DNA of 61,342 nucleotides, counting the filler, from Stramenopiles sp. TOSAG23-6 (taxonomy: Eukaryota): assembly GCA_900128565.1 (NCBI GenBank). It is 12 parts of 12 records of this genome, joined end to end, with 100 filler letters (N's around TTAATTAATTAA, not from the genome) between each part and the next. Parts side by side here need not be neighbours in the genome. Positions count along the whole stretch, not along the records: positions 5,153 to 10,201 come from LT636983.1; 11 more parts are not named here. One strand, 5' to 3'. The notes below the pieces were generated by a model. That model had not been told where the DNA came from, did not search any database, and worked only from the letters and a program-made list of their open reading frames with translations. Both the position numbers and the translations under genes were made by a program. Shown here piece after piece: positions 1-61,342 of this stretch (the first letter of the stretch is position 1; each line of letters starts with the position of its first letter).

Positions 1-56
1 ATTTTGTACCTAACAAATTTTAGTTTTTTTTTTTGAAATATTTTTCCAAAATACAT

Positions 57-658
57 AAGGATTACTAATGCACTGTATCAAGCACAGTTGATCAATAAAG
101 GTGGAAAAATTGTTATTATTACTTCACAAGCTGGTTCAATTTCCTGGCGCGCTCATCAAAACCCCAATGGTGATAATTATGTACGCGCTAATCACTCTTT
201 TTCATCATATATTTCATTTTTTTTCATCGGAAATTTCATTTCTAACAAATTTCAAATTTGGCATTTTTTTTGTGAGCCACATGGTCACCATATGAGTCGC
301 TCTGCGACAAATATGATGGCAAAATTACTTTCATTTGAAATGAAAAATCATGGTTTTCCTGTTGCTTTATTACACCCAGGATTTAATAAAACTACAATGA
401 CTAAAAAATATGAATCTATTTGGGATGTTGAAGGTGCGGTAGACCCAGAAATCGGTGCCATGTATGTTTTATTTTTTTTTTTACAAAAAAATCGAATTTA
501 TTTTTCATACGAAATTTTGTACGTAATAAATTTTTTTAGATTTTTTTTGAAATATTTTTCCAAAATACATGAGAGTTCTTCATACAATCAATCAAGTAAA
601 TATGGAAAACTCTGGAGATTTTATAAATTGTGAGGATGGGCTATTAATACCGTGGTAA
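57..658 (+). CDS. Short-chain dehydrogenase/reductase (CsgA-like), 5'-partial; exons 57-180, 283-461, 571-658
   Basis: Spliced product reads KIVIITSQAGSI...GDNY|GHHMSRSATNM...VALLHPGFNKT.MT...GAM|RVLH...SGDFINCEDGLLIPW*, matching the CsgA-type SDR C-terminus. Obtained by removing GT..AT introns. Confidence 0.85.
181..282 (+). other. Non-canonical GT-AT intron (diverged family member)
   Basis: gtacgc...tctaac...gagccacat; removal joins DNY to GHHMS. Confidence 0.8.
462..570 (+). other. Non-canonical GT-AT intron (repeat family)
   Basis: gtatgttttatttt...catacgaaattttgtacgtaat...ccaaaatacat; removal restores the frame to the conserved ...IPW* end. Confidence 0.85.
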
Positions 659-983
659 ATTGGTAAATTGGTAATTAATTTGTCAATTTGTATGACTGCA
701 AAATGGCAAAATATCTCTTTACTTGAAATTTCAAAAACAACAACAATGATACCAACATTTGATATATTTGAATGATATATGAATTGATTTTTATAATTTA
801 TCTTTTTAATTCAATAAAATTTCATATTTGATTTCGGATACTGTATTTTTTATTTTCAATTCTGAGCATACCTTATAAATAGATTTCTATCCATTAGTTC
901 AATTTTTTTTTACGTAAAACTTTTATTTTTTTCGTACGAAATTTTGTACCTAACATTTTTTTTCCAAGATTTTTTTTTTCCTG

Positions 984-5052: not shown

Positions 5053-5152
5053 NNNNNNNNNNNNNNNNNNNNNNNNNNNNNNNNNNNNNNNNNNNNTTAA
5101 TTAATTAANNNNNNNNNNNNNNNNNNNNNNNNNNNNNNNNNNNNNNNNNNNN
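5053..5152. other. Artificial contig linker (first of 11)
   Basis: N-run + ttaattaattaa (stops in all frames) + N-run, recurring near 10.2, 15.4, 20.5, 25.6, 30.8, 35.9, 41.0, 46.1, 51.2 and 56.3 kb. Confidence 0.97.
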
Positions 5153-6309: not shown

Positions 6310-9300
6310 ATGGATAATCATTCCGCACGAAATATTGGATTATTTCCTTCTATTAGTCGTCATTCTTCGCCAGCAGTACCTTATAAAAATGACACCAATA
6401 CAAATAGTACAAAATCAACGAAAACGAGTACAGTAAGTTCATCCCCTGATAGTGTATTGAGCTATGCTCATGGTATAAAAACAGCAGCACAACGATCATC
6501 AGAACGTCACAAGACAAGTCTTGTAAAAAATTCTCGCACAGTCTCACGGAATAGTGCCAGACACATTCTCAGTCGATCACAAGGGAAATCATCACATTCT
6601 GGACAATCTCATTCTGGACAATCATTTAATACAACATCAAGATATCGTCCCAGAACAAATCGAGTAAGTTTGTTGACTAAACGAGGACACCGAAGACTTC
6701 ATGCAAAATCAATTCCATTATCACCAGATTTTATAAATAATCGTCCAAAGTCTCACCATATTTCTTCGTCTTCATCCTCTCAAATAATCAACTCTACATT
6801 TAATCAATATGGACTATATACCAAAAATAGTAAATATAATAAGGTAAGTATAGGAATGAGTGGTGGTTCAAATCGTTTGAGGCATAAATATTTACGTGAC
6901 AAAAATGGGAAAAAATTAAAAAACACAAAAAACACAAAACATTCAAAAAATATTANAAAAAAAAGAGACTTTTCTAAAGATACTATTCAACGTGGATTGC
7001 GAAGTACAACAAGTCATAGATTATATAAGAAGAAAAAACCATCTTCACCATATATTTCAAGATTACAATCATCAAATACGATTGTGACCAATGGAATTCT
7101 CTCTCAAGACGGAAATAGAGGGTACCCGGTAACATCATCTCGTTTTTCTACAAAGTCAACAAAATCTCATTTGTCATCAAGTCATAGTAATACTAATTCC
7201 ATGCAGAGGTCAATAATGTCTCCTACTATATCTCATACAACATCTCACAATACTCATGATAAATTACAAACCAAAACACGTGGCTTGAGCAGAAAAAAAA
7301 ATTCAAATTTTCATTGGAATTCTCCGAATTTTAAAAAAAATAATTTGAAAGGTAGTTTAAAAAATCGAACAGGAATAAAAAATGAAGATCAAAATGTGTA
7401 TACATATTATACAAAAAGTATTCAAAATATAAAAAATGCACAAAATATACAAAATGTAAAATATTCAGTAAAAAATACAAAAAATACCAAAAATACCAAA
7501 AATACCAAAAATACAAAAAATNTAAAAAATAATAAAAATAATAAAAATTTGTCAACAAATTCACAAATTCGACCAAGAACATATCGTATAAAAAGACCTC
7601 TGTCAATGCGTGATACAAAAGATTTGAGTTGGCGTCGTGGACGAAGTGCTACAAGTACAACAGATTTTGGCACTTCACAGTTTTCTAATTTGACTCGAGA
7701 TACACCAAAAAATCGTAAAAATCATCAAAATATAAAAAATAATAAAATTGTACAACTTGGCGATTTGGAGAGATCAGGTTGGTTGTATCATGATGCTAAA
7801 ATAACACGAAATCTTGATAATTTATTAACAGCTGCATCAAGTGCATCTTCTGTTGTGTCGATGATGTCAAGACTGAATAGAGAAAAAGTTGTTTGTACGT
7901 TTATTATCTTACAAAACTACAAAATAACTACAAAATAACTACAAAATAACTACAAAATGTTGTGTATTCTAAAAAAATGTTTTTTTTTTTTTTTAATTTT
8001 TAAATTTTTAATTGAACCCTAACCCTAACTCATGAATGTTTTTTCTACAATCTAAAAATATTTCTTGTCATCACATGGAGTCGAGTTTTTTATAGATTAG
8101 AAAGAAATTCATTAAAATTTTATGCTTCAGAACACAACAGGACAAAAACATCACCAAATCCAAACAATGTACGTTTTATTTTTTTTCAATTTTGAGTTTA
8201 TTTTTTTTTTTTTCATAGTAAATTTTGTACCTAACAATTTTTTTTTTTTTTTTTGAAAAATTTTTCCAAAANNNNNNNNNNNNNNNNNNNNNNNNNNNNN
8301 NNNNNNNNNNNNNNNNNNNNNNNNNNNNNNNNNNNNNNNNNNNNNNNNNNNNNNNNNNNNNNNNNNNNNNNNNNNNNNNNNNNNNNNNNNNNNNNNNNNN
8401 NNNNNNNNNNNNNNNNNNNNNNNNNNNNNNNNNNNNNNNNNNNNNNNNNNNNNNNNNNNNNNNNNNNNNNNNNNNNNNNNNNNNNNNNNNNNNNNNNNNN
8501 NNNNNNNNNNNNNNNNNNNNNNNNNNTTTTTTTTTTTTTTGGTTTTTTATAAAAATTTTGTACCTAACAAATTTTTTAAAATTTTTTTGAAATATTTTTG
8601 AAAATACATGGGTTACTTTAACAATAATAACTGATACTAAGTATGACTATGTTCGATGGTTTGAAAGTCTTGCTGCCTTTTTGTTTAGTTCTAAACAAAA
8701 AGAAAATAATTCTTTACCTGCTTCTAATCTAGACAATATTAAAAATAATATTAAAAATAATATTGAAAATAATATTGAAAATAATATTGAAAACAATATT
8801 GAAAATAATATTGAAAATAATATTGAAAATAATATTGAAAATACAAAATTGAATACAGATGAAAAAGAACACAATTCTTCTAACACAGAGCATTTTGTCC
8901 AAAAGACAATTTCTGTGATTCCGGAGATAAAACCGGTTGAAATCTTGACAGCAACGTCTTTATTAAATACTCACGATTTTTCAGAGATCTTACCTACCAT
9001 GGTGCTTCCAATGTATGTTTTATTTTATTTTTTTTCGAATTTATTTTTTTATAGTAAATTTTGTACCTAACGAATAGAAGGTTTTTTTTTTTGAAATATT
9101 TTTCCAAAATACATGGCACCGACAATTCGAGCAAAGCCAATATTACCCGGTACTCTTTCAAATAATCAACAAATTACTATGAATGAGATTGGAACAACAC
9201 ATGATGGTATGACATCACCAAATTATGATATCCCAAGTAATGTTGGTGTGTACGTTTTCTTCAATTTCATTTTTTTTATAATTTAATATTTTTTCATACG

Positions 9301-10201
9301 AAATGTTGTACCTAACGAGTTTTTTTTTCCAAAAAAAAAAAAAAAAAAATATTGTTTTATTCTACATTGATATTGGAATGGGAAAACGTTTAATGATGGG
9401 CCTAGCTTCAGTATCACAAAATAGAATTCGTGCGGTATCAAGTCATATATGTTTTATTTTTTTTCATTTTTGATTTTTTTTTTTTATAAAATTTTTTTTT
9501 TCGTACGAAATTTCGTACCTAACAATTTTTTTTTTAGAAAATTTTGAAATATTTTTCGAAAATACATGTTGCACCAACTATTTCAGAACGTCGTGAAAGA
9601 ATTCGATTAGGCAAAAATATTTGTTCAAGTAATCCAAATAATACAACAAAAATCAGTAGAGGTCAACAGGTTCGTGCTATCCCAGAAACATTATTGAAAG
9701 CTATCCGTGATGCAAATAATGCTGAAAATAATAACAATAGTGACATTGAAAATATAGGTCAGAAGAATGACGAATCAGTTGAACATTCTGATGAGAAGAA
9801 AAAAGTAGACAAAAATACAAAAAATACAAAAAATACAAAAAATACAAAAAATACAAAAAATACAAAAAATACAAAAAATACAAAAAATACAAAACATACA
9901 AAAAGTGAATTTTTTGTGAATAGTTTTGAAAATATTGATGAAAATATTGATGAAAATATTGATGAATATATTGAAAATACAAAAAATACAAAAAATACAA
10001 AAAATACAAAAAATATTCATATTATAAATAATGGAAATAATGGTATGCATAAAGACAAACCAGCAGTGCCAAGTAGAATTTCAAAAAGTTTTCATATAAT
10101 ACAAAAATCTATTATAACAAACGTAAAAAGTGATAGTTGTAGCACATCGCTTGATTCAGATGAAAAAGAAGAATTAGTTGTGCCCGATTGTTTAAGTACA
10201 A
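6310..10201 (+). CDS. Multi-exon low-complexity protein with a PH domain, 3'-partial
   Basis: ERSGWLY...VV|WSRVFYRLERNSLKFYASE...YDYVRWFESL after removing introns 7895-8076, 9013-9114 and 9250-9367 (GT-AT) and 9447-9567 (AT-AT); internal N gap. Confidence 0.7.
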
Positions 10202-10302
10202 NNNNNNNNNNNNNNNNNNNNNNNNNNNNNNNNNNNNNNNNNNNNTTAATTAATTAANNNNNNNNNNNNNNNNNNNNNNNNNNNNNNNNNNNNNNNNNNN
10301 NT

Positions 10303-20483: not shown

Positions 20484-20583
20484 NNNNNNNNNNNNNNNNN
20501 NNNNNNNNNNNNNNNNNNNNNNNNNNNTTAATTAATTAANNNNNNNNNNNNNNNNNNNNNNNNNNNNNNNNNNNNNNNNNNNN

Positions 20584-24194: not shown

Positions 24195-25354
24195 ATGAAT
24201 CCAGATGAACTCGAGCGTACACTACTTGATAATATACCAGTCATATATGACACGTACAATGGAATCTCCGTCAAGAGCAACTCTTGGATAGAGAGTTTTC
24301 ATGGAAATACAAAACTTTTTAAAAGAGTCTTACAAAAAATCCTTACACACATGGCGTTCAAAAGGTTATTTTGGCGTTTGGCTTCATCTCCCTATATCTT
24401 CAGCAATATTTATTCCCATAGCTGTTGAAGTTGGATTTTGGTTTCATCATGCGAGACCAAAATATGTAGTATTATGTGTATGGTTGCCTCATGCAACGAA
24501 ATCTCGTTTGCCTCTGGCTCCTTGTAACTACGTTAGTGTCGGAGGTTGTGTCATTAATAGTAAAAATCAAATTCTATGTGTTCAAGAAAAGACTGGTCCT
24601 ACAGCTCATATGCAATTATGGAAATTTCCTGGTGGACTATGTGAAACAGGAGAAAATATTGCCCACGCAGTACGGTTTCATTTTGAATTTTTTACCTAAA
24701 TTTATTTTTTTTGATTTCGTACGAAATTTCGTACCTAACAAATTTTCGAATTTAATTTTTTGTACAATACATGCGACTCGTGAAATATTTGAAGAAACTG
24801 GAATAAAAACAAGTTTTCATTGTCTTGTTTCAGTGATTCAATTTCACAATGGCAAAGGGTTAGGATTAGCTAGGGAATCATTTTCCGATATTCATTGTAT
24901 ATGTGCTTTATATGTATGTTTTATTTTTTATTTTTTTTCAATTTTGAATTTATTTTTTTTTTCATACGAAATTTCGTACCTAACAATTTTTTTTTCAAAT
25001 TTTAGTTTTTTTTTGAAATATTTTTCCACAATACATATAACGGATGAAACACAAAAAATAAATGTCCAAGAAGATGAAATTTCAAAATGTAACTGGATAT
25101 CATTTGAAAAACTTATAGATCATTCTTTATATCGTGAATATGATGAACTTCGTCATGCCTACCGCACTGCTTTTAGTATAACAAAACAATATAAAGATTC
25201 AACTCACCTAAGAAATAACCCTAACCCTACTAATCACCTAAGAAATAACCCTAACCCTAGTCAAAATATATATAACAGGCTATTAACTTCTGTTGACATC
25301 AGTAGTGAGCCACTCAATGTTGTTAAAGGAGTGAATCCAAAAAGTAAATTATAA
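24195..25354 (+). CDS. NUDT6-like Nudix hydrolase; introns 24670-24772 and 24914-25036; apparent homopolymer frameshift ~24335
   Basis: GVWLHLP, GFWFHHA, and a complete Nudix box GGLCETGENIAHA|ATREIFEETGI only after GT-AT splicing. Confidence 0.9.
24670..24772 (+). other. GT-AT intron splitting the Nudix box
   Basis: gca|gtacgg...tttcgtacgaaatttcgtacctaac...caatacat|gcg restores GX5EX7REUXEEXGU spacing exactly. Confidence 0.9.
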
Positions 25355-25620: not shown

Positions 25621-25864
25621 NNNNNNNNNNNNNNNNNNNNNNNNNNNNNNNNNNNNNNNNNNNNTTAATTAATTAANNNNNNNNNNNNNNNNNNNNNNNN
25701 NNNNNNNNNNNNNNNNNNNNGTACAAAAAAAAAAAAAAAAAATTGTTAGGTACAAAATTAACTACGAAAAAGAAAAAAAAATTTTGATAATTTTTTTTTT
25801 TTTGAAATATTTTTTAAATATTTTTCTAAAATAAAAAAAAAACATTAAAAAAAAAAAAACGTAC

Positions 25865-28193
25865 TTAATTCTTCGACATTTTCTGAATTACAAAAACAAT
25901 ACATTAAAGCTGTTTTGCCATTTGGATCCGTGTCATTGATATTGGCACCTTTTTCAAATAAAACTTTACATATTTCAAATCGAAACGTCAAAGAAGCAAC
26001 AATTAAAGCAGTTTTTCCTTGTATCCATGAAGTTGGAAAATTCACAATTGGTGCATGACATTTTAATACAGAATGTATTGTATCAATATTATCTTCAATA
26101 ATGGCCCAAATTAAATGTTTATGAAGTATAGCACAAGACATTTGACCGATAGATCCACAGCTTTTAGCTATATACTTCCATTGCTCAAAGACAATTTCCG
26201 AAGAAGACATATCCGTAATATCATCTATAGCATATCCAGACACTGACATGCATGTACGATAAAAAATATAAAAAATATAAATTTTGTTAGGTACAAAATT
26301 TACTATAAAAAAAAATATTTTTTTTTTTACCGAAAAAAAAAAAAATGTAAAAAATATAAATTTTGTTAGGTACAAAATGTACTATAAAAAAAATATTTTT
26401 TTTTTTACCGAAAAAAAAAAAATTTTTCAAAAATATAAAACATGCATACTGTATTACCTATTGAAACTGTTGAAATCTTTTGTTTTTGGAATGCATCAAT
26501 GTATTGTGAAAAAATATTTTAATTTTTTTTGTTTTTTTTTAGGTTTAGGTACAAAATTTCATACGAAAACCAAAACCAAAAAAAAACATTAAAAAAAAAA
26601 AACATACGAGTGGACACGAACGGGGTATACAGCTGCCGTTTTTGTTGCTTTTTCAATTTGTTGTACTCTCCAATCTTCTATATATTCAAAATGAGTAGTA
26701 GTACTATTATTATTCTGTTTGATTGGTTGGATTGGTGTTGTTGTTGGTGTGGGATCACCATGAGAGAGCTGAACATTTTGTCCAGATCCCCATGTGTACA
26801 ATCTCCCACTTGATGTTATACAGCAACCATTTGTAGTACCGGGTATCAACATGACGATTTCATCTTCTTTAAAGAATTCCTGATTGATTTTTTTTGGTAT
26901 CCATTGGTCCAATGTATTTCCATGCCCAAGTTGACCATATTGACCTTCTCCCCACGTAAACACTGAACCAGAATCTGCCATGAGAGCACTACTATGATGT
27001 CCAGAAAAAGATAAAATAATTGGATTTTCACCTTCAAATGTAAAAGAACCTAAAACAACTGGATGTATTTTGGAAAAATATTTCAAAAAAAAAAAACTTA
27101 AATTTGTTANNNNNNNNNNNNNNNNNNNNNNNNNNNNNNNNNNNNNNNNNNNNNNNNNNNNNNNNNNNNNNNNNNNNNNNNNNNNNNNNNNNNNNNNNNN
27201 NNNNNNNNNNNNNNNNNNNNNNNNNNNNNNNNNNNNNNNNNNNNNNNNNNNNNNNNAAAAAAAACCCAATTTTTAAAAAAAAAAAAAATCGTTAGGTACG
27301 AAATTTCGTATGAAACCAAAAAAAAAAAGAAATTAATAAATTCATGATGAAGACGTACATGACCAGTTTCAAAGATTACACCAACGTGACTAGCACCTGA
27401 TGTGATTTGAACAGCTCTACTTGTAGATAGTAATTTGTGACATGAAATATTCGTCATTTTTTCGGTATTTTCGGTATTTTCGGTATTTTCATTTTCAGAA
27501 GAATGATTTGAATGTTTTATACTCTTTATATGTTGAATCAATTTTTGAGGTGTGGTAAAAATAAAATTCTCATCATTTTGAATCGCCGAACTTTGTTCAA
27601 TACTTGACTGTTGTGACTGTTGTGTAGGTAACCCTAACCCTAACTGTCCATTTTCATTAGACCCCCAAATTTTGTCAAAAAATATTTTAAAAAAAAATCG
27701 TTAGGTACAAAAAATTTTTACCAAAAAAAAAAAAAAAAAAAACAATTTTTTNNNNNNNNNNNNNNNNNNNNNNNNNNNNNNNNNNNNNNNNNNNNNNNNN
27801 NNNNNNNNNNNNNNNNNNNNNNNNNNNNNNNNNNNNNTAATTTTTTTATTTGGAAACGTACAAGAATATAATTCACCATTTTCAGTAATTACAACCGAAT
27901 GTTTGTTACCAAGTGCAGTGGCATAAATACATGTAATTTGTAGAAAATATTTCAAAAAAAAAAATTTAATTTTTGTTAGGTACAAAATTTCGTATAAAAA
28001 AAAATTCAATTCAAAATTGGTAAAATACTTTGCCCTTCGAAGTTTATTCTTGCAAGGTATGATGGCTTTGATCGATCTATCAAGTCATTCAAACCTAATT
28101 GACCAAAATTATTTTTTCCCCATATCCATTTTTTGTGAATTAATATTTTTGTATAGTATTATTTGGATGAGAAAAATTTCAAAATATTTCAAA

Positions 28194-30412: not shown

Positions 30413-30710
30413 AAAAAAAAAAAAAAAAATGATGTATCGATGATTCTAATTCGAAATTTCAAAAAAAAAAAATTTTCATCGATTTTTTTGTAGTACAGTA
30501 CAAAACCTAACAAACAAATAAACAAACAATTGAAATATTTCTATACACTTTATGAGCGAATGAATGGAACAAGACCTCAAACCATGGAAGGGTCATTTCA
30601 GAAAAAATGTGTCGAGAATGCATTGAGTAAAATATGGTGTCAAGAATTGATTGGGCGTACAAAAATGTATTTTTTATTTTTATGTTTTTATACGAAATTT
30701 TGTACTTAAA

Positions 30711-30746
<36 letters not shown>

Positions 30747-30921
30747 NNNNNNNNNNNNNNNNNNNNNNNNNNNNNNNNNNNNNNNNNNNNTTAATTAATT
30801 AANNNNNNNNNNNNNNNNNNNNNNNNNNNNNNNNNNNNNNNNNNNNTTGTACTTAAACAATCGGGCACAACTAATTCTTCTTTTTCATCTGAATCAAGCG
30901 ACGTGCTACAACTATCACTTT

Positions 30922-32048
30922 TTACATTTGACTTTTTGCAAGAATTGCTTGTAATTCTAATAAAGAACAATCCGTGGAATCAACACAATCTTCAACGGCT
31001 GGTTTTTCTATAGTTTTTTGGTACTGAAATTTCAAACCACTTTGTACTATTTCATTAGGGTTAGGGTTAGGGCTTTGTTCTCCTACGTTTATAGTAGTAG
31101 ACGTTGTTGTTATTGTAGGGTTAGTATTCGCATCAGTCGCACATTCAATACCCCAAACATTATCTTCATGTATAGATTTTTCATCATTACATTTTCTATT
31201 TTTTTTCCATTCTTTTTTTTTCCAACTACAATATTTTTTCTGTAAATCACAACAGTGAACATTTTCACAATCTTTATTCGGTTTCATGCAATCACCAGGG
31301 AAAAAATTACTCATTGCATTATATCCTAAATAATATGAAACTTGACCAAAATCTAATAAATATTTCAAAACATTCTGAACAAGTAAACCAGATATAATAC
31401 CCATTGTTGTTGGAAGTGAAGCCGCACAAACTCCATCTCTTTTTAATGATGACTCATCGATGTCAGAAGCTACAATTAAGGGAGGTATACATTCAAAGCA
31501 GGCTGATCGACCAGGTAACATTAGTTGTATATGTCCATTAACCTATATTGTTGAACATATTTAAAAAAAAAACAAGTGAAAAAAAATGTTAAGTACAAAT
31601 TTTGATACGAAAAAAAAAAAGTTAAAAAAAAAATCATGATGAAAAAATACAGCATCTTCACTAACTCCTGATTCCATCCATGGTTGATTCAATTCATTAC
31701 ACGCCTGATTTATGGCAATACGAGCACCGTAGTTATCAACACAAGAAAGTACAAGATCAACAGCTACTTCCTGAGTTATGTCACTCGATACATCCGAATT
31801 TGTTCTTTTCATCTTCTTAGAAAGCCCACCTGTTTTTATTCTATCCATAAAATGTTCAAAATTACGCGGAGATGTGATATCATAACAATATTCTTCGAAT
31901 TGAACATCAGGATTAATTTTTAGTAAAGTCTTTACCGCGGCTTCAGTTTTGGTCATACCAGTTTGATCTGGTGTGAAAAATAGTCTATTCATATTTGCTA
32001 ATTCAACTTTATCATAGTCAAAAAGGATAAGTTTTCCGATACCACAAC
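30922..32048 (-). CDS. UBA5: UFM1-activating enzyme UBA5, N-terminus missing
   Basis: [73 protein letters not shown]-like motif; intron 31543-31650 is GT-AG. Confidence 0.92.
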
Positions 32049-32248
32049 GTGTATTGTAAAAAAAATTAATTCGAAATTTGTTAGGTACAAAATTTCGTAC
32101 GAAAAAAAAAATAAATTTGAAATTCATAATGAAAATGTACAGTAATCATGTGTTTAGAATAAATATGTCAAATTCGAAATTGTTAGAAATTGTTTAGATA
32201 CAAAATATTTCTAGTAAAATAAATCTGAAATTCCTGATTAAAACAAAC

Positions 32249-34126
32249 ATATTGATACGATCACCTGAGTATCGTCTGGATTTTGAATGTATAGTATCTC
32301 TATTTATCCCTGAAGTAGTAGAAATACTTTGCTTGTGTTTTACGTCACTGTGACTAGGGTTAGGGTTAGGACTAATTTTTCCAAACCTATCCTGTGAATT
32401 TTGAAAACCTGTTTGTTCTTGATAAATAACATGTTCTGTTATCAATACACGAAATGTCAGGGCAGCTTCATTTGTAAAGTTTTTAATACTCTGTATTGCT
32501 TTAACGTCATTTTGCTGCATTGCTTCCTTTAATTTCTCATTCATTTCGAATTGATTGGGTCGTAATATATTAGGACCAAGAACAATAGATAGAGATGTAT
32601 TGTGAAAAAATATTTTAGAAAAAAATCGTTAGGTACAAAATTTCGTACGAAAAAAAAATAAATTTGAAATTTATCATAGAAACGAACATTCTTCATTCAT
32701 TTGATTTTCAGGTATTGATATAATTTCTCTACATAAAAGTAATAAATCATTTAATAATAAAAGACTTGGCTCATCCACATTTTCAGTCAATATTTTTTTT
32801 AATTCTACTGATACATTTATACTCATCTTTGAAGTGTCCATATATTTTGAAAAATTAACACTTTCATTTTCATGAGTTGAAAAATTAACACTTTCATTTT
32901 CATGAATGTTTTGCTTATATTTTCGCTTATATTTTGTCATTTTCAAAATTCTCCTAAAAACACTTGCTGGGATTAAAGGGGCATGTTGACGTAAGACACG
33001 TTTGATCGCACATGTATTTTGGGAAAATATTTCAAAAATTTTATTTTTTTCGTTAGGTACAAAATTTTGTACTAAAAAACATTTTTTTTTTAAATAATGA
33101 CAACGTACAAGCGACAGCAAAATGTTGGGGTGTTGGTGATATAGAGTTGATATTTTCTGCTCTCAATGCGATTGCATCCGACAAAAGCGTAATTTCCTTC
33201 AAAGTAGCAGGAACACGAAATATTCCTCTTATATGAAGAGAATTTTGTCTCAAAAACCAAATGGCAGCATGTAAAGCTTTAATTGTAAATAAACCTAATT
33301 GAGGTTCAATCTTCATTTCGATTTCTTCCTTTGTATTTGTGTTTCTAAGTTTTTTATTATCTACGATTTTATCTTTTTCTTTCTTTGCATTTTTGATATC
33401 AATCATATCAGAATTTCTTGATGAATTGACAGTACTCTCCGCTGAACTAATGTTAGGGTTTAATGTATTAGAAGTATTCAAACTTTGGAAGCTAATTTGG
33501 TTTTGGATTTTTTGTAAAATTGTTTTTCTTTGTGGCGTTGCAGGGTAAGGATGAGTAATAGAAGTTTTAGATATAGTGAGGGCGTCAACTAAATTGTTAC
33601 GAGAGGTTGTTTCTTTCATTGTTGAAGTAAATAAATTAACCGTGGAATTATTTCTTTGCTTGCTAGGAGATATTTTCATATCACTTTCTTTAGACTTTAG
33701 TTTACTACTACTATCTGGACTTTCAAAGGATAACAATCTATTTGTACTACTTATATCCATATTTCCCGTTTTTTTTGGTATCTTCTCAAAAATACTGTGC
33801 CTTGACTTAAGAACAGTTTCATTTGGGAATTTTTCCTCTGTGGCCGTATTATTCTGCACGTAGGGTGGTGACTGTAGTGTAGGTCGTCTAATGCGCGATG
33901 AGTTTTTTTCACCAGGTGTCATAGTTTTCCTTATTTCATTTAACTTCTCCAGTCCAGCACCAGCTTTCCGTGCAGAATCAAGCACAACACGTCGTTCAAA
34001 CAGATTCTTTGAATTATTGAATGAATCTTTCCTCATAACATTCTTCTCCAGGGGTTGCCCACTCAAAATTCCTTTCTTCTTAGAAAAATTGAATGGTGAT
34101 GGCCGATGAATTAGAACGGACGACAA
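32249..34126 (-). CDS. RhoGAP-domain protein, multi-exon, no stop seen
   Basis: GIFRVPA, HFAVA|CAIKRVLRQHAPLIP, NQMNEE|SLSIVLGPNILRP after removing GT-AT introns 33012-33108 and 32595-32687. Confidence 0.85.
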
Positions 34127-40963: not shown

Positions 40964-41115
40964 NNNNNNNNNNNNNNNNNNNNNNNNNNNNNNNNNNNNN
41001 NNNNNNNTTAATTAATTAANNNNNNNNNNNNNNNNNNNNNNNNNNNNNNNNNNNNNNNNNNNNTACGAAATTTTGTACCTAACAAATTTCGAATTTAATT
41101 TTTTTTACAATATAT

Positions 41116-41311: not shown

Positions 41312-42343
41312 GTACGTTCTATTTTTTTTGAATTTCGAATTTATTTTTTTTTTTGAATTTCAAATTTATTTTTTTTTACCCAATTTTCCAAAACAAAATA
41401 TTTTTTCACAATATATGTACCTCCTACTGTGGCAGAGAAGGCAGAGTGTATGTTTTATCATGAATGTTTTACCTAAATTGTTTTGTACTATATTTTTTAC
41501 CTAACGAATTTTAAATTTTGCAATATTTTTTACTATATACGCCCATCTGATTGGCACCGTAGGAAATCACAATGGGAACATATGTACTCAAACAATACAA
41601 TTAATTTACCACAAAATTTACACTTATCTACAATAGCAAAACAGAAAAATGACAATAACAATAACAATCAAAAGATTATAATAGAGAAATTATTATCAAT
41701 GGGATTTACTCAAAGTGAAGTGATATGTATGTTTTATTTTTTTTCAAATTCCAAGTTTTTTTTTTNTAGTAAANTTTNTACCNAANCAAATTTAAGTTTT
41801 TTTTTGAAATATTTTTCCAAAATACATATACTCTCAATAACATAACTAAAGATACTCGTGTCAATACATGGGTAATTCTTGATGGTGTCAGTGTTCTCCT
41901 ACAATCTTCCGTCGATTTAGATGAAACAAAAATCAAAAATTTGACATCTCAATTTTGTATGTATGTTTTATTTTTTTTTTTCACAAAAAAATCGATTTTG
42001 TTTTTTATAAAAATTTTGTACCTAACGATTTTTTTTTGAAATATTTTTCCAAAATACATGGAATATGAAATTGTGAGTAAAGATTGTAGCACTAACCTGG
42101 CGAAAACTGTGCAAACAAATATATTACGTGCTTTGCAACAAACTGCGCACACAAAATCAATATTGGAAAGTGTTATGTTCCAACACAAAACATTTCCACA
42201 AAGTGAATTCAAAAGTTTAGATATGAGGGAACAGGGTTTTTCTTCTTCATGTATATTTTCAGGATCAATTTTAAATTTATTTATATTTTTATAAAAATTT
42301 TGTACCTAACAAAAACACATGAAAATATTTTCCTAAAATACAT

Positions 42344-43777
42344 GTAGGGCGAAATGGATGAAAACTATTCAGAAGAAATATACTTTACTAGTTAATAATA
42401 AGTTTTGTGATGAAATGGCTACTAATAGTAAAAATAAGATATGTGGCGGTTTTGATATTAATTCCTTTTTACAATATTATGGGAATGCAAATAAATTCAA
42501 AAGGTTACAAGAAATCATTATTTCGTGTCCAGGTATACATGCTCGTAAGACGGCGCCTTGTAATTTAGATAATGATTATACAGTGTATAGAAATAATGGA
42601 GATACTTTGCGTGTACTTTTTGTACGCCACTCATTGAAGGATTCACAATATGATATTACTGAAAATATTGAAAATATTGAATTTTCTGTACATAATAGAT
42701 TTATACCTATTCCAGAGATCAAAACAGAAGCTGTATTCAGTATTTATGGAAATACACGCATCGATGGTAGTGCAGTAGAATTGGCATTCGATAGTTTTCT
42801 TGAACAAACACACGATGAAAATAATTATAGTAATGATACGAAAGATACCTTACAATGTAATTCCAATACAAAGAATCCAACTTCATGTAATAAAATTCCA
42901 GGAATTTTTGGTTTTATGCCAAGGTTCGTTGGGCGTCGTCCAAATAACCTTATTGGTGTTTCCGATATTGATGGTGATTTTGTTTTGGCAGAACATACCA
43001 TCGCTCATGGATATAACATTGTTGCTGCCACTTCAATGATGTTCCATCGTGAATTGTTGAATGAATATATCTGCGGGTCATCGAAACGGCTTTTGGAACT
43101 CGTGGATGTACGTTTTCATTTCAATTTTGAAATTTTTTTCATACGAAATTTTGTACCTAACGATTTTTTTTATTTTCGGTTAAAAAAAAAATATCTTTTT
43201 ACAATACATCAATACCAAAATGCAACAGAAGATATCTTATTCAACATTGTTGCTGCCAAGTTTGGTCATTCTAAAGCGATCATGTATGTTTTATTTTTTT
43301 TCACAAAAAATTCGAATTTTTTTCGTACTAAATTTTGTACCTAACGAATTTTTTTTTGAAATATTTTTCCAAAATACATACTCCCTCGATTGGATTGTAG
43401 AAATTCTTATATTCAGTACGGTGGTGATTGTTGTGGTGGTCACTTTCTAATTACAGATATAAATGATTTCCAAAATGTAGATGATGAAAATAAACAGATA
43501 TATGAAAAAAATATTTCAAAAAAGAAGGATTCGGCAAAATATTGGTGGCATGTAGGTTTCCATTAGGGTTAGGGTTTTCATCTTTTTCAAAATTTAAAAT
43601 TTTTTTTTTCAAAGTAAATTTCGTACCTAACGAATTTCAAATTTCAAACATGTTTTCTTGGCAATACATAGTGCTCACATCCAGACCTTAGCAGAAGAAG
43701 AATTTGGTATACGTTTGAAAACTACAAAGTTGTGTATAACTTCATTTGATATTGAATGTGTGGAAAATCCTAAATGA
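42344..43777 (+). CDS. Glycosyltransferase family 64 (EXTL-like) domain exons; upstream exons uncertain
   Basis: VHNRFIP.PEIKTEAVFS, GFMPR, YNIV..SMMFHR, VD|QYQNATEDILFN; GT-AT introns 43108-43209, 43284-43379, 43552-43669. Confidence 0.75.
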
Positions 43778-46013: not shown

Positions 46014-46306
46014 GTATGTTTTATTTTTTTTCAAATTCGATTTTTTTTTCGTACGAAATTTTGTANNNNNNNNNNNNNNNNNNNNNNNNNNNNNNNNNNN
46101 NNNNNNNNNTTAATTAATTAANNNNNNNNNNNNNNNNNNNNNNNNNNNNNNNNNNNNNNNNNNNNAGTAATTCATATATTGTGAAACATATTTTTTTTTT
46201 TGTGTTTTTTTTTTTTTTTTTAAAAAATTCAAAAAAAAAAACATTAGGGAAAAAATTTCCTAAAAAAAAAAACAAAAAAAAAAAAAAAAATGAAAAAAAA
46301 ACATAC

Positions 46307-46691
46307 TTTTTTTGGACATAACGCAACACGAATAGCAAGATCAATTTCAGATGCAAATGCAGCTTGAAATCTTTGAGGAAATGAAAATTGTAATGGTTGT
46401 TGATGAAACCCAGACACATCAGCTGCTGTGATATTGCATTTATTGTGAAATAATAATTTTTTTTCTTTGATTTTGTTAAATTTTCATTTCAAAAAAAAAA
46501 ATATTTTTTTTGTTCGATTTTGTTACTATTTTGTACAAAATTTTCATTTCGAAAAAAAACTATATATATTATTTAGGTACAAAATTTGGTATGAAACCAT
46601 TTCAAAAACACAAGTATGAAATAAACGTACATTCACGAGGAGTCTCCACCACCATTTTACCCTTTGTACCAATACATTCAATTCGATTATC
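46307..46691 (-). CDS. Two internal exons of a myo-inositol 2-dehydrogenase-like (Gfo/Idh/MocA) protein
   Basis: DNRIECIGTKGKMVVETPRE|CNIT...PLQFSFPQRFQAAFASEID; intron 46438-46630 is GT..AAT. Confidence 0.7.
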
Positions 46692-46797
46692 ATGTATTTT
46701 GAAACAATATTTCAAAAAAAAAAAAAAAATTTNGTNAGGTACAAAATTTCGTACGAAAAAAAAAATAAATTCGAAATTGAAAAAAAATAAAACGTAC

Positions 46798-47962
46798 ATG
46801 CCAAGATGTCCCACAAGCGCATATGATAATACGTTTTGCATTTTTAAGCTTTGGCCAAACTTCTTGAAGTCCACCGAGCTTAATATCAGCAGATTCGACT
46901 CTTTTTGGACTTTCATTGACACGAATATCAGTATTTCTACTTATACCATCAAACAAAATTCTGCCCCTCATACATGTATTGTGAAAAAACACGAAATCAC
47001 AAAATAAAATCGTTAGGTATGAAATTTCGTATGAAAAAAAATGTAGGTAAAACATTGAAAAAAAATAAAAACATACATGCATTGAGTGTTCTAGGTTGAT
47101 CATTAATTTCCTTCAACATAAAATATTTATAGCCACCTTTTTCAATTTCACAGCGCTTCATTTGTATTCTTTGAACTTCACGGGATAGCTTTTGATCTAT
47201 AATGGAGTGTATAGAAATAATTTTGTGTGAGACTTTTTTTTCTTTGTTTGTAGGGTTAGGGTTACGGATAATGGTAATGAGATCTGCATCTTTCAAATAT
47301 ATCACATTATCAGTATACTCAACGACTGCAGATGCATCGCTAGCAAGAAAATATTCATCATATTCTTTACCAACACCAACAATAAGAGGTGAACCCATTC
47401 GAGCCCCAATGAGAACATTTGGGTTGGCTGAACTTACTACAGCGATACCAAAAGTACCTTCAATTTGCGTCAGTGCGAGTCGAACAGCTTCAGTGAGTGT
47501 TTCCGTACTACTTCTTCTGTCGTCTGAATTTTTTTTAATTCCTTTTAAAATATCGTCTATAAGATGCACTACGACCTCAGTGTCAGTTTTAGAAACGAAT
47601 TGATATCCTTTTTCTTGAAGCATCCCACGGAGAACTTCGTGGTTTTCAATGATTCCATTATGGACAACACAAATATCACCTAAAGTAGAGGTATGCGGAT
47701 GAGAATTAACATCACTAGGTTCACCATGTGTTGCCCAACGAGTATGACCCACACCAACACAGCATTTAGTATTTTTCTGATTCTTTAACGCACCCTCCAA
47801 GTTTGAAACTTTACCCATTCGCTTTGTAACACACAGTGTGCCATTTTCATCAACAATACCAACTCCTGCGCTATCATAACCACGGTATTCAAGGCGCTTC
47901 AAACCGAGAACTAAAACGTCACGTGTCACGCGACTACCAATATAGGCTATGATTCCACACAT
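46798..47962 (-). CDS. glmS: Glutamine-fructose-6-phosphate aminotransferase, N-terminal part
   Basis: MCGI, LEYRGYDSAG, GHTRWATHG, VHNGIIEN, FMLKEINDQP..NA|CMRGR, ACGTSWH; intron 46974-47076 is GT-AT. Confidence 0.95.
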
Positions 47963-51101: not shown

Positions 51102-51259
51102 AGGTATTTTGGAAAAATATTTCAAAAAAAATTCTAAAAAATTTGTTAGGTACAAAATTNNNNNNNNNNNNNNNNNNNNNNNNNNNNNNNNNNNNNNNNN
51201 NNNTTAATTAATTAANNNNNNNNNNNNNNNNNNNNNNNNNNNNNNNNNNNNNNNNNNNN

Positions 51260-55300: not shown

Positions 55301-56404
55301 AAGCTGCGACAAGAACATATGCGCACCCCCATACCGTTAGGGGAGCTTAAACCCCGATCCTTTTGATTAACGACTAATAATTAGGTGCGCTACCACCAGG
55401 CCCTACCACCGAACCCTATCGTCGAGCTCTACCACAAGAACCCTTACCTGGCAGAATAAAAACACAGGCTATCACTAAAGCCCAGCCGAGTTAATCAAAC
55501 TTTTTAGACATCCGAGTAAAGATTGGCCGCCTGACAAAGTTTTCAAAAATTTAACCACTTTTGAGTACCGTGAAGTCTGGGTAAACTCCGCTAAACACCT
55601 TTGTTAGAAGAGATAAGTCTCAACCATACCCACCTAAGGTCCCTACCGAACCCCATAAACCCTACTGCATTAACCCCAGTAATCCCTTTGTGTTGCTTAT
55701 CCAAGGGTTAGCCAAACTAACTATACTAGATAATCACTTGTGTTTCAAACGAGGGTACAACCCCCGTAAGGAATATTTATACAAAAACCGTTAAAGCACT
55801 TACGCCCACCCAAGAAGAGTCGCAGTACTGTGACCCACCCCAGACAAGCACCAACTCTTAGCCAGTAGGTCAGCCCCACCAACTATGTAACCACCAGACG
55901 CAAACGATTTGGTACTAGATGTGGGCAGGAGACCAACCACCAAAACTAGCTCGCCTAACGCACGCGCCAATCTTTGTCCTCGTGATGGCTTCTTCCCTGC
56001 CCGTGCCCCTATTTTGACGAGCCAACGTGTTTACGCGTGCCCGCCTACCCGGGCGGCTAGGCTCCTGCTAAGATGTAATAGTAACCCCCAGAGCGTCGGT
56101 AGACATGAAACTAGGTCGTAAGCTGACTAGCTACCCCAATAACTACCACGTACCCTTCGCTAAATTAACATAACACTGCTTGAGCGGGTCCCTTTATATC
56201 CGTAATCAAACCAAACGTTATCGTATATAAGCCACGCTTACACAAGACTTTNNNNNNNNNNNNNNNNNNNNNNNNNNNNNNNNNNNNNNNNNNNNTTAAT
56301 TAATTAANNNNNNNNNNNNNNNNNNNNNNNNNNNNNNNNNNNNNNNNNNNNGTACAAAATTTCGTACGAAAAAAAAATCGAATTTGAAAAAAAATAAAAC
56401 ATAC

Positions 56405-61253: not shown

Positions 61254-61342
61254 ATGTATTTTGGGAAAATATTTCAAAAAAAACTTGTTAGGTACAAAAT
61301 TTCGTACGAAAAAAAAATCGAATTTGAAAAAAAATAAAACAT

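What the first reader, a model, noticed from the sequence alone, without database searches (positions are those of the whole stretch)
9447..9567. The introns form one repeat family (introner-like) with an internal palindrome
Seen: dozens of copies in unrelated genes share the consensus GTA(T/C)GTTTTATTTTTTTCAATTTCGAATTTATTTTTTTCGTACGAAATTT(T/C)GTACCTAACGATTTTTTTTGAAATATTTTTCCAAAATACAT. The core has overlapping perfect palindromes TTTCGTACGAAA and GTACGAAATTTCGTAC directly before the branch-like motif. Copies range from near-consensus to strongly decayed (181-282, 7895-8076). Established: introner elements generate sequence-similar introns in several algae and fungi. Inference: prolonged mass intron gain from a non-autonomous mobile element. 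The palindrome could be a transposase-binding site or an RNA hairpin that presents the branchpoint.
Basis: partly seen in the sequence, partly recalled or inferred. Interest (0 to 1): 0.88.

Follow-up and report, generated by a model that had tools for sequence, protein, structure and literature searches.

The report
Mobile intron family with non-AG ends
Nearly every intron seen in this sample of a marine eukaryote's genome is a copy of one small repeated element that starts like a normal intron but ends in CAT instead of AG, and one copy is missing from the same gene in a wild population, so the family seems to have been spreading recently.

Summary
A profile built from 21 copies finds 49 copies in the 61 kb window and none in reversed or shuffled controls. 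The window is 12 pieces of about 5 kb joined by linkers, so the copies lie in unrelated genes.

Copies are 89-123 nt. They start GTAYGT, carry the core TTTCGTACGAAATTTYGTACCTAAC, and end ACAT rather than AG. Cutting from GT to AT joins the flanking reading frames in 15 of 15 unambiguous cases. It also restores a Nudix box and a gapless GFAT alignment.

Similarity reaches far beyond splice signals, with subfamily-specific internal segments. One copy (50194-50288) is 97.9% identical to a neighbour. It is precisely absent from a seawater-metagenome contig that keeps the next intron.

The palindrome shows no covariation. Its variation sits on CpG sites.

Best reading: an introner-like mobile element that creates spliceosomal introns with GT...AT ends. 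This resembles the 3'-AT introns of Fritillaria tunicates. I saw no RNA junction reads, no transposase and no clear target-site duplication. The host taxon is unresolved.

The parts
9447..9567 (+). Focal copy, full element (121 nt), ATATGT...ATACAT, in the N-terminal part of a SNF2/Myb gene
   Evidence: (profile hit 9491-9567). Frames join in phase 0.
9447..9455 (+). 5' splice-site block of the focal copy (ATATGTTTT; family consensus GTAYGTTTT)
9499..9510 (+). 12-nt palindrome TTTCGTACGAAA
   Evidence: Exact in 9 copies of the window.
9503..9518 (+). 16-nt palindrome GTACGAAATTTCGTAC
   Evidence: exact in 3 copies. No covariation.
9515..9523 (+). GTACCTAAC, putative branch-site block, the most conserved part of the family
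   Evidence: Columns 96-104 are conserved in 25-29 of 29 copies. 36 exact matches in the window.
9558..9567 (+). 3' terminal block CGAAAATACAT, ending in AT rather than AG
1..56 (+). Copy, 3' half, cut by the window start
   Evidence: model 50-99
181..282 (+). Decayed copy (GTACGC...GCCACAT) in a short-chain dehydrogenase gene
   Evidence: Read; below the profile threshold
462..570 (+). Full copy
911..964 (+). Partial copy (core)
   Evidence: model 19-73
7895..8076 (+). Decayed or other intron, GTACGT...CACAT, with an internal tandem repeat and CCCTAACCCTAAC
   Evidence: Read; not a profile hit
8169..8271 (+). Copy, cut by an N run
8543..8608 (+). Copy, 3' part after an N run
9013..9114 (+). 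Full copy
9250..9326 (+). Copy; 3' end uncertain (9352 or 9368)
24670..24772 (+). Full copy that splits the Nudix box. Its borders cannot slide to AT-AC.
24914..25036 (+). Full copy (123 nt) in the Nudix gene
25739..25771 (-). Partial copy next to N
26279..26319 (-). Partial copy (tandem cores inside one long intron-like stretch)
26358..26415 (-). Partial copy (second core of the same stretch)
26499..26607 (-). Full copy in an RCC1 gene. Only the GT...AT register is possible.
27281..27358 (-). Copy, cut by an N run
27672..27727 (-). Partial copy
27943..28023 (-). Copy lacking a recognisable 5' end
30683..30715 (+). Weak core-only hit (E 0.0048). The only hit on the opposite strand to its neighbours.
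31546..31616 (-). Weak copy in a ThiF/E1-like gene, ending ATATAG
32049..32140 (-). Full copy ending ACAC. All three frames are closed just upstream, so it is probably part of a longer intron.
32595..32687 (-). Copy starting GTTCGT
33012..33108 (-). Full copy
41063..41114 (+). Copy, 3' half after a linker (tail C subfamily)
41448..41530 (+). Diverged copy
41727..41827 (+). Full copy
41961..42059 (+). Full copy
42251..42343 (+). Full copy
43108..43209 (+). Full copy in a GT64-like gene
43284..43379 (+). Full copy
43552..43669 (+). Copy starting GTAGGT, with TTAGGGTTAGGG inserted near its 5' end
46014..46065 (+). Copy, 5' half, interrupting SHMT; cut by a linker
46174..46306 (-). Probable decayed copy (GTATGTTTT...CACAATATAT) in GFAT
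   Evidence: Read; not a profile hit; frames not checked
46529..46601 (-). Partial copy inside a longer intron-like stretch of GFAT
46692..46797 (-). Full copy in GFAT
46974..47076 (-). Full copy in GFAT. The junction ...LNAC|MRGRI aligns to orthologues without a gap, and an 8-nt direct repeat CATGTATG sits at both borders.
48534..48627 (-). Full copy in the LRR gene, 97.9% identical to 50194-50288
49785..49879 (-). Full copy starting GCATGT. It is retained in the metagenome contig that lacks the next copy.
   Evidence: (X3 record 6)
50194..50288 (-). Full copy, precisely absent in X3 record 6 (which joins 50192 to 50288)
50667..50769 (-). Full copy
51104..51159 (-). Copy, 3' half ending ACCT; cut by a linker
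56352..56404 (-). Copy, 5' half; cut by a linker
56509..56600 (-). Full copy, the only one with a canonical 3' AG (ATACAG)
56768..56872 (-). Full copy starting ATATGT
59233..59321 (-). Full copy ending ATATAT (RCC1-like gene)
59442..59536 (-). Full copy ending ATATAT
59700..59795 (-). Full copy starting ATACGT
59976..60065 (-). Copy; 3' end unclear
60308..60383 (-). Weak copy
   Evidence: E 0.0012
60965..61062 (-). Full copy
61254..61341 (-). Copy, cut by the window end

Best explanation
This is an introner-like family: a short (about 90-120 nt), non-coding mobile element that brings a complete set of splicing signals with it. Each insertion into a coding exon is therefore removed from the transcript as a spliceosomal intron.

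The element supplies four things:
- a strong 5' splice site (GTAYGTTTT);
- T-rich spacers;
- a branch-site block (GTACCTAAC);
- a conserved 3' block, C(A/C)AATACAT, placed 32-53 nt after the branch site.

Excision runs from the G of GTAYGT to the T of ACAT, so these are GT...AT introns. The 3' cut is set by the element's own conserved end, not by the first AG after the branch point.

Insertions sit at (C)AT|G(T) sites. The CAT before the 5' site and the CAT that ends the intron form a short direct repeat, so excision restores the original reading frame.

Shown: the family, its exact reading-frame behaviour, its non-AG ends, its subfamilies and one presence/absence difference. Inferred: that removal is done by the spliceosome at the RNA level, and that spread is by DNA transposition (MITE-like, driven by an unseen autonomous element) rather than by reverse splicing. 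I put DNA transposition at about 2:1 over reverse splicing.

The palindromic core is most simply a feature of the master copy. TTTCGTAC occurs twice, 12 nt apart, and the second copy runs into the branch site. It decays by CpG transitions once a copy has inserted.
For: 1. Family. There are 49 profile hits against 0 in the reversed window and 0 in 10 shuffles. Hits lie in 8 of the 12 pieces that make up the window. Host genes are unrelated: SDR, SNF2/Myb, Nudix, RCC1, ThiF, GT64, SHMT, GFAT and LRR.

2. Precise removal at GT...AT.
- Of 25 full-length copies, 15 have a single open frame (25 codons or more) on each side. All 15 join in phase, and chance would give (1/3)^15, about 7e-8.
- 24 of 25 have a compatible frame pair.
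- Element lengths fall in all three classes mod 3.
- Removing 24670-24772 recreates E-x7-REIFEETGI, a Nudix box, read. The consensus of that box is recalled, not taken from a call.
- Removing 46974-47076 gives KEINDQPRTLNACMRGRI, which aligns without a gap to KEILDQPRALLNCIRGRI and 11 other GFAT relatives.

3. The 3' end is not AG.
- The 31 defined 3' ends are ACAT 26, ATAT 3, ACAC 1 and ACAG 1.
- 11 of 25 copies have no in-frame AG from the branch site to 45 nt into the exon.
- 7 of 25 have an AG between the branch site and the ACAT end that must be skipped.
- Copies 24670 and 26499 cannot slide to an AT-AC register.

4. Similarity goes beyond splice signals. Tail A was found 17 times, tail B 10, tail C 3 and head A 12, each with 0 hits in the reversed control. 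Head and tail types are associated (my reading; Fisher p=0.02). The single JGI metagenome contig with the exact core carries a full copy of the same subfamily as 46974-47076, bordered CAT|GTATGT...ACAT|GG.

5. Recent mobility.
- X3 record 6 (1264 nt, depth 6.8, 5 differences) joins 50192 directly to 50288. It therefore lacks exactly the 95-nt copy, yet it retains copy 49785-49879 and runs into copy 50667-50769.
- The absent copy is the youngest-looking one, 97.9% identical to 48534-48627 in the same gene.
- In X3 the summed contig depth is about 7 over exons and about 1,700-41,000 over bins holding elements. This points to a very large family.

6. Insertion-site signature. Upstream AT occurs in 22 of 31 copies (background 0.086) and CAT in 11 of 31 (background 0.016). 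Downstream G occurs in 19 of 31 and GT in 10 of 31.

7. Orientation. Within each piece all hits share one strand, the coding strand of the interrupted ORFs. The single exception is one weak hit.
Against: - I saw no RNA read or contig that bridges a junction. In the three polyA metatranscriptome runs laid, exon cover was near zero. Only two low-depth contigs stop at intron borders (X6 records 9 and 15), and the tool did not report them as joints.
- X3 is labelled 'DNA?', a guess. If it were RNA, the intron-less contig would be a partly spliced transcript and not an allele.
- Table 8 is truncated, so an X3 contig carrying the copy may also exist.
- A 3' AT paired with a 5' G is chemically unusual for the spliceosome. 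For about two thirds of copies the borders can slide, and the AT-AC register fits equally well.
- A target-site duplication cannot be told from a target or splice preference, because the intronic CAT does not vary with the exon flank.
- Terminal inverted repeats are only GTAT/ATAC plus T/A runs.
- No transposase or longer element was found, and the whole genome could not be searched.
- Only 61 kb was sampled. Four of the 12 pieces, with long ORFs such as Ku70 and a 1491-codon ORF, have no copy.
Confidence: 0.72

Rival explanations
1. The family and the introns are the same, but copies spread by reverse splicing. An excised intron RNA would insert into another transcript, followed by reverse transcription and recombination. 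No DNA transposase would be involved.
For: - All but one weak hit are in the sense orientation of the interrupted ORFs.
- No clear intergenic or antisense copy was seen in 61 kb.
- No convincing TIR was found.
- There is no covariation between the exon flank and the intron end that would prove a TSD.
- No transposase was found.
- The flank preference (C)AT|G(T) could be a proto-splice site of this spliceosome.
Against: - The junction motif is palindromic (ACAT|GT, and TACATGTA where the exon starts GTA). That is typical of sites cut by dimeric DNA enzymes.
- The youngest pair of copies lies 1.6 kb apart in one gene, like local hopping of a DNA element.
- Purifying selection alone would remove antisense exonic copies.
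- Introner families studied elsewhere mostly carry DNA-transposon marks: 49 of 130 families have TSDs and 72 of 177 have TIRs (PMC9860276, passage read).
Confidence: 0.18
2. There is no mobile element. These would be ordinary, old introns that look alike because this organism requires long, rigid splice signals and has T-rich, low-complexity intron bodies.
For: The most conserved columns are the ends and the branch block. Spacers are homopolymer-rich. Decayed introns (181-282, 7895-8076) keep only the ends and a CTAAC.
Against: - Long internal segments are shared by subsets of copies in different pieces, with 0 control hits.
- One pair of copies is 97.9% identical.
- One copy is precisely absent from a contig 99.6% identical in its flanks.
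- About 75 of roughly 95 positions are conserved in the consensus, far more than splicing needs.
Confidence: 0.04
3. The elements are cut out of the DNA, as in programmed elimination (IES-like), or are removed from RNA by a non-spliceosomal process that pairs the two ends, as in euglenid nonconventional introns.
For: - Short direct repeats sit at both borders.
- One copy is precisely absent in a DNA-like contig.
- AUGUAU at the 5' junction is complementary to AUACAU at the 3' end.
- A terminal GUAU/AUAC helix, or GUAC/GUAC in one of them, appears in 4 of 8 single-sequence folds.
Against: - The elements carry a textbook 5' splice site and branch site at the usual spacing.
- The same X3 contig keeps the neighbouring copies, and three metagenomes and the source assembly hold the elements.
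- RNAalifold finds no conserved pairing.
- The genetic code is standard and nothing ciliate-like was seen.
Confidence: 0.04
4. The window comes from a fritillariid larvacean tunicate, and this is the already published class of MITE-derived non-canonical introns.
For: - The published hallmark is a YAY triplet before the 5' site and as the last three intron bases, with 3' AT the commonest end in two Fritillaria species (PMC13326754, section 21 read).
- Here the 3' triplet is YAY in 30 of 31 copies and the upstream triplet in 15 of 31.
- The organism is marine.
Against: - The 5' ends here are GT in 28 of 31, whereas AG is commonest in F. borealis.
- The best relatives of its GFAT exon are mostly 600-625 residues long, a length I recall as typical of bacterial-type GlmS and not of animal GFAT.
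- Its Ku70 has only two relatives above 30% identity, both unnamed.
- Nothing animal-specific was established.
Confidence: 0.05

Closest known systems
Introner elements of Micromonas and Aureococcus, and the introner families found across eukaryotes (Huff et al. 2016, recalled; Gozashti et al. 2022, PMC9860276, passages; review PMC11282704, passages)
   Same: These are short non-coding repeats that make up many introns in unrelated genes. They carry splice signals, have short direct repeats at the borders, differ between populations, and occur mostly in aquatic organisms.
   Different: Those families use canonical GT/GC-AG ends, with one site taken from the TSD. Here the 3' end is a conserved CAT. 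TSD and TIR are not demonstrable here. Within this sample the family accounts for almost every intron I could recognise.
Non-canonical introns of Fritillaria borealis and F. pellucida (Henriet et al. 2019, known to me only through PMC13326754 and PMC11282704)
   Same: They have 3' AT ends, with a YAY triplet both before the 5' site and at the intron's end. They are thought to derive from MITEs and are removed by the U2-type spliceosome.
   Different: In F. borealis the 5' ends are mostly AG and the ends are highly diverse. Here there is a uniform GTAYGT 5' site, a yeast-like branch block and one dominant sequence family. The host is probably not a tunicate.
Amoebophrya introner elements (PMC7789003, passages read)
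   Same: Repeated non-canonical introns in a marine protist, with 3-5 nt direct repeats overlapping the borders and no transposase nearby.
   Different: Those have 8-20 nt inverted repeats that form a hairpin, and no fixed terminal dinucleotides. Here there is no conserved hairpin and the termini are fixed.
Fungal introner-like elements (van der Burgt et al. 2012, recalled; cited in PMC9860276)
   Same: Families of similar introns multiplied within one genome, decaying into ordinary-looking introns.
   Different: The fungal elements have GT-AG ends and predicted stable RNA structure. They are longer and have far fewer copies per kb.
Hemiascomycete yeast introns
   Same: They work alike at the 5' site (GTATGT) and the branch site (TACTAAC-like CTAAC), with the branch site tens of nt from the 3' end.
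   Different: Yeast uses YAG at the 3' end, has few introns, and those introns are not a repeat family.

Membership tests
Introner elements | Introns in many unrelated genes are similar along their whole length, not only at splice signals | tested here: met
   49 profile hits against 0 in controls. Shared internal heads and tails. Host genes are unrelated.
Introner elements | The elements are removed as introns, restoring the reading frame | tested here: met
   15 of 15 unambiguous frame joins. Nudix box restored. GFAT junction is gapless. Shown from DNA and homology only; no RNA junction was seen.
Introner elements | Evidence of recent insertion (presence/absence between individuals or strains, near-identical copies) | tested here: met
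   Of 7 intron sites in the laid stretch, 1 is absent, 4 are present and 2 are not assessable in X3. The best pair of copies is 97.9% identical. Caveat: the DNA label of X3 is a guess.
Introner elements | Target-site duplication at the borders | tested here: inconclusive
   A direct repeat CAT(G) is present: upstream AT in 22 of 31, CAT in 11 of 31, downstream G in 19 of 31. The intronic half never varies with the exon, so a TSD cannot be told from a site preference.
Introner elements | Terminal inverted repeats | tested here: inconclusive
   Only GTAT...ATAC plus T/A runs. The terminal helix appears in 4 of 8 folds and not in the alignment fold.
Introner elements | A cognate autonomous element, or thousands of copies genome-wide | not testable with these tools
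   No genome is held. The depth ratio in X3 hints at a very large family. No transposase domain was found in the window ORFs scanned.
Fritillaria-type non-canonical introns | YAY triplet as the last three intron bases and often just upstream of the 5' site | tested here: met
   3' triplet CAT, TAT or CAC in 30 of 31 copies; upstream YAY in 15 of 31. Definition taken from PMC13326754 section 21.
Fritillaria-type non-canonical introns | Non-GT 5' ends dominate (AG/AC, AG/AT), and the host is a fritillariid tunicate | tested here: not met
   5' GT in 28 of 31 copies. Host taxon unresolved, with hints against an animal.
U12-type AT-AC introns | 5' ATATCCTT, and branch site TCCTTAAC 10-15 nt from the 3' end (recalled definition) | tested here: not met
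   The 5' site is GTAYGTTTT. The branch block lies 32-53 nt from the 3' end in 23 of 25 copies.
Euglenid nonconventional introns / hairpin-dependent introners | Conserved pairing that brings the two intron ends together | tested here: not met
   RNAalifold predicts 0 pairs on 29 copies. Single-sequence z-scores run from +0.72 to -3.38, with different folds.
Ciliate IES | TA-bounded, removed from somatic DNA, in a host with a ciliate genetic code or nuclear dualism | tested here: not met
   Borders are CAT|G, with no TA at the empty site. Long ORFs are open under the standard code.

The most novel reading that the evidence does not exclude
In a unicellular marine eukaryote, a single introner family that is still active has created essentially the whole intron complement. 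It would have done so with a 3' splice site that is CAT rather than AG. That would be a genome-wide GT-AT intron class handled by a U2-type spliceosome, arising independently of the fritillariid tunicates and still segregating in wild populations.
Probability: 0.4. Interest if true: 0.82.

Novelty: new variant of a known kind. Interest (0 to 1): 0.7.

Why it matters
Introners are the best current explanation for bursts of intron gain, but nearly all described families obey GT-AG. A family with a textbook 5' site and branch site and a fixed non-AG 3' end would help in three ways:
- It would give a clean natural system for asking how the 3' splice site is chosen when AG is not used.
- It would show whether a spreading element can drag a genome's splice code away from the universal rule, as proposed for Fritillaria.
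- It would offer a case where gain can be watched in wild populations, since one site already differs between samples.

There is also a practical point. Gene finders trained on GT-AG will mis-predict most genes of this organism. In line with this, a search with the GFAT exon found no near-identical full-length protein, although the threshold used was very strict.

Tried and rejected
- Whole genome: none is held, so no genome-wide count and no search for an autonomous element.
I resent it for 46737-51159.
- RNA runs X6, X7 and X8. Exons had next to no cover, and none of the records shown bridges an intron. The listed joints are cross-matches between different copies of the family. X6 record 9 begins at 49877 with 24 unaligned letters. 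X6 record 15 ends at 51103 with 45 more letters. Both would fit spliced RNA, but their letters were not shown, so I do not count them.
- Taxon. The SHMT search, which I set by mistake to longer proteins only, gave 65-73% identity to plants, algae, dinoflagellates and a fungus, with no signal. The Ku70 search gave only two unnamed relatives at 37-38%. The Atlas search was uninformative.
- The GFAT exon search at E<=1e-100 found nothing. The threshold was too strict and the search was wasted.
- JGI metagenome contigs. A 104-aa exon query found no relative. The exact 25-mer found one contig. IMG/VR gave 0 hits.
- GTDB genomes gave 3 hits to a degenerate 22-mer. These match only the motif itself and are chance.
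- A census of ORF breaks with and without family hits was too noisy to use, because of spurious ORFs and homopolymer frameshifts. I therefore give no percentage of introns that belong to the family.
- Rfam found only two tRNAs.
- Literature. Searches for GT-AT plus introner (0 papers), introner with single-cell or uncultured terms, GT-AT non-canonical protist introns, the core motifs as words (primer coincidences only) and SAG/flagellate/splice terms found no description of this family. Supplements were closed, and Henriet et al. 2019 was not in the library.
- TA-type (Tc1/mariner) duplication was rejected. The empty site ...CCATCATGGAAAAG has no TA.
Full report
WHAT THE WINDOW IS. The window is not one stretch of a chromosome. 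At 11 places two runs of 44 N flank 12 letters, which read TTAATTAATTAA where I saw them. These cut the window into 12 pieces of about 5.05 kb. It is AT-rich, about 21-46% G+C in 2-kb windows apart from one odd piece. It reads in the standard code and has long eukaryotic ORFs: SNF2/Myb, Ku70, IQ, LRR/LNR, RNI-type LRR, ankyrin, RCC1, ThiF, YEATS-amidoligase, GT64, Nudix, SHMT and GFAT. The window is therefore a scattered sample of one genome, and 'unrelated genes' is literally true.

The element at 9447-9567 is as described.
- The 25-nt core with up to 3 mismatches occurs 29 times against 0 in 100 shuffles.
- GTACCTAAC occurs 36 times against a mean of 0.21.
- A profile built from 21 well-bounded copies finds 49 hits at E<=0.01. 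The reversed window gives 0, and 10 shuffles that keep local composition give 0 each.
- Hits lie in 8 of the 12 pieces. That is about 0.8 per kb overall, but the spread is very uneven. Some genes have a copy every 200-400 bp, while a 1491-codon ORF and Ku70 have none.
- The two 'decayed' examples keep the same ends and a degenerate core.
- The perfect palindromes are a minority state. The 12-mer is exact in 9 copies and the 16-mer in 3.

THEY BEHAVE AS INTRONS WITH EXACT BORDERS.
- Among 25 full-length copies, 15 have exactly one open frame of 25 codons or more on each side. In all 15, deleting the element from its first G to its last T joins those frames in phase. Chance would give about 7e-8.
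- 24 of 25 have a compatible frame pair. Element lengths fall in all three residue classes, so read-through would shift the frame.
- Two junctions are checked by homology. Removing 24670-24772 gives ...GENIAHA|ATREIFEETGI, a Nudix box with the right spacing (sequence; the box consensus is recalled). Removing 46974-47076 gives KEINDQPRTLNAC|MRGRI, which aligns without a gap to 12 GFAT relatives.
- The next GFAT junction (46692-46797) is followed by six residues with no counterpart in the relatives. That acceptor is therefore less certain.
- Copy 32049-32140 has stops in all frames just upstream and is probably part of a longer intron.

THE ENDS ARE THE SURPRISE.
- The 5' hexamers are GTATGT (16), GTACGT (9) and six single variants.
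- The 3' tetramers are ACAT (26), ATAT (3), ACAC (1) and ACAG (1).
- Eleven of 25 copies have no in-frame AG anywhere from the branch block to 45 nt into the exon.
- Seven copies have an AG between the branch block and the ACAT end that must be passed over.
- Because most copies are preceded by AT, their borders can slide by two, and an AT...AC reading fits them as well. Copies 24670-24772 (preceded by GCA) and 26499-26607 (preceded by CTC) cannot slide that way, and the first is the Nudix junction. The family reading is therefore GT...AT.
- The branch block sits 32-53 nt from the 3' end in 23 of 25 copies. The other two values are artefacts of my motif picking.

MOBILE ELEMENT OR RIGID SPLICE CODE? 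It does.
- A 22-nt tail type occurs 17 times, a second tail type 10 times, a 32-nt third type 3 times in three different pieces, and a 37-nt head type 12 times. All gave 0 hits in the reversed control.
- Head and tail types go together (my tabulation; Fisher p=0.02).
- The only JGI metagenome contig with the exact core carries a full copy of the same rare subfamily as 46974-47076. It is again bordered CAT|GTATGT...ACAT|GG.
- Pairwise identity runs from 97.9% down to a median of 68-70%. This fits a long history of insertion and decay.

RECENT ACTIVITY. Public runs that hold the 41-51 kb stretch are two small DNA runs of one organism (possibly the source), three seawater metagenomes and five seawater polyA metatranscriptomes. 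I laid X3 (metagenome, labelled 'DNA?') and three RNA runs on 46737-51159.
- In X3 every one of the 30 bins has cover. Bins without a family copy, spacer included, have depth about 4-16, and bins with elements sum to about 1,700-41,000. So the run holds the organism, and the family is very large there. The tool warns that this is not a copy number.
- X3 record 6 is 1264 nt long and has 5 differences. It runs from 49336 to 50192 and continues directly at 50288 to 50694. It lacks exactly the 95-nt copy 50194-50288, yet contains copy 49785-49879 and enters copy 50667-50769.
- Of the seven intron sites in the stretch, four are present in X3, one is absent and two cannot be judged.
- The absent copy is the one that is 97.9% identical to 48534-48627, 1.6 kb away in the same gene. 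A recent, perhaps local, insertion is the simplest reading. Precise loss through the CATG microhomology is the alternative.
- The empty site, ...CCATCAT|GGAAAAG..., contains CATG once and no TA.

INSERTION SITE. Upstream of the 5' site, T is at -1 in 27 of 31 copies, AT in 22 of 31 and CAT in 11 of 31. Background frequencies in this genome's ORFs are 0.086 for AT and 0.016 for CAT. Downstream, G is first in 19 of 31, GT in 10 of 31 and GTA in 5 of 31. Each border therefore tends to read CAT|GTA, and the right-hand border is often the palindrome ACATGT. This looks like a short duplication or a palindromic target. Because the intronic CAT and GTA never vary with the exon, I cannot separate a duplication from a preference. 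Terminal inverted repeats amount to GTAT...ATAC plus T and A runs.

THE PALINDROME. On 29 aligned copies:
- The helix GUACGA/UCGUAC is paired in 78.5% of cells against 78.2% after shuffling, with no compensatory change.
- The helix made by the 12-mer behaves the same way.
- RNAalifold predicts no pair at all.
- Single copies fold with z-scores from +0.72 to -3.38 and with different shapes. The 6-bp hairpin appears only where the palindrome is intact.
- Variation in the core sits on its three CpGs. CpG1 reads CG 10, CA 8, TA 4. CpG3 reads TG 19, CG 7. The neighbouring columns are 26-29 of 29 conserved, and GTACCTAAC is nearly invariant.

My reading is that the branch block is kept by selection for splicing. 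The palindrome belongs to the master copy and erodes by CpG transitions after insertion. TTTCGTAC occurs twice, 12 nt apart, so the core also looks like a tandem duplication of a branch-site-like 12-mer. A DNA-level role in transposition remains possible and untested.

COMPARISON WITH WHAT IS KNOWN.
- In how it works, this is an introner, as in Micromonas, Aureococcus, dinoflagellates, fungi and many aquatic eukaryotes (PMC9860276 and PMC11282704, passages read).
- Its ends recall the fritillariid tunicates. There, a YAY triplet precedes the 5' site and forms the last three intron bases, and 3' AT is the commonest end in two species (PMC13326754, sections 4 and 21 read). Here the 3' triplet is YAY in 30 of 31 copies.
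- The 5' ends here are GT in 28 of 31, not AG, and there is one dominant sequence family.
- The host does not look like a tunicate. The closest GFAT relatives are mostly 600-625 residues long. Ku70 has only two unnamed relatives at 37-38% and then 24-27% to fungi and insects. The taxon stays unresolved.
- Amoebophrya introners share the non-canonical ends and short border repeats but depend on long inverted repeats, which are absent here.
- U12-type, euglenid-type and ciliate IES readings each fail a defining feature (see the membership table).

VERDICT. The family and its intron behaviour are real and far beyond chance. The introner interpretation is well supported, the hairpin idea is not, and the non-AG 3' end is the most interesting point. 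Still missing are RNA junctions, a genome-wide census, an autonomous partner and the host's identity. Five literature searches found no description of this family or of GT-AT introners. Supplements, and the 2019 Fritillaria paper itself, could not be read.

Noticed in passing
window 5053-5152, 10202-10301, 15344-15443, 20484-20583, 25621-25720, 30747-30846, 35856-35955, 40964-41063, 46066-46165, 51160-51259, 56252-56351: The window is a concatenation of 12 pieces of about 5.05 kb, joined by N44 + 12 letters + N44 linkers. Genes and elements are cut at the piece ends, and neighbouring pieces need not be linked in the genome.
   Followed up: yes
window 5293, 8017, 15050, 25436, 27632, 28860, 31055, 43563, 43791; L001 about 2290-2350: Short telomere-like blocks, (TTAGGG)2-3 or (CCCTAA)2, occur at nine internal places. 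Some lie inside introns (8017, 43563), some inside apparent coding sequence, and some at gene ends. L001 has CCCTAA and TTAGGG blocks in inverted orientation after a gene. They could be a regulatory box, a coding NPNP repeat or insertion debris.
   Followed up: partly
window 51260-56251: One piece is quite different. Its G+C reaches 0.54, it is strongly A+C-rich on the + strand, and I saw no long ORF there. It has a 167-bp unit repeated 1.8 times at 51967-52274 and two tRNA genes (Leu-TAG at 51257-51339, Lys-TTT at 51645-51717, both on the - strand). It has no family copies. It could be a different genomic compartment or foreign DNA.
   Followed up: partly
window 10258-14733, 36130-38448, 18468-20531, 38529-40382: Several very long ORFs (1491, 772, 687 and 617 codons) have no copy at all, while other genes have one every 200-400 bp. 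The family is strongly clustered by gene.
   Followed up: no
window 28620-28690, 29040-29080 (- strand) and other long A/T runs: ORF breaks that coincide with homopolymer runs of 12-17 A look like sequencing frameshifts, not introns. Gene models in this assembly need care.
   Followed up: partly
window 26277-26445 (- strand): Two family cores lie in tandem about 80 nt apart (TAGTACATTTTGTACCTAAC...TAGTAAATTTTGTACCTAAC) within one intron-like stretch. This may be a nested or duplicated insertion.
   Followed up: no
window 22993-23922 (- strand): An ORF combines a YEATS domain with a putative amidoligase (Amidoligase_2) domain, an unusual pairing.
   Followed up: no
window 47078-47962 (- strand): The closest relatives of the GFAT N-terminal exon in the 50%-identity library are mostly about 600-625 residues long. 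I recall that length as typical of bacterial-type GlmS. The gene also has an 18-residue insertion just after the first intron junction.
   Followed up: partly
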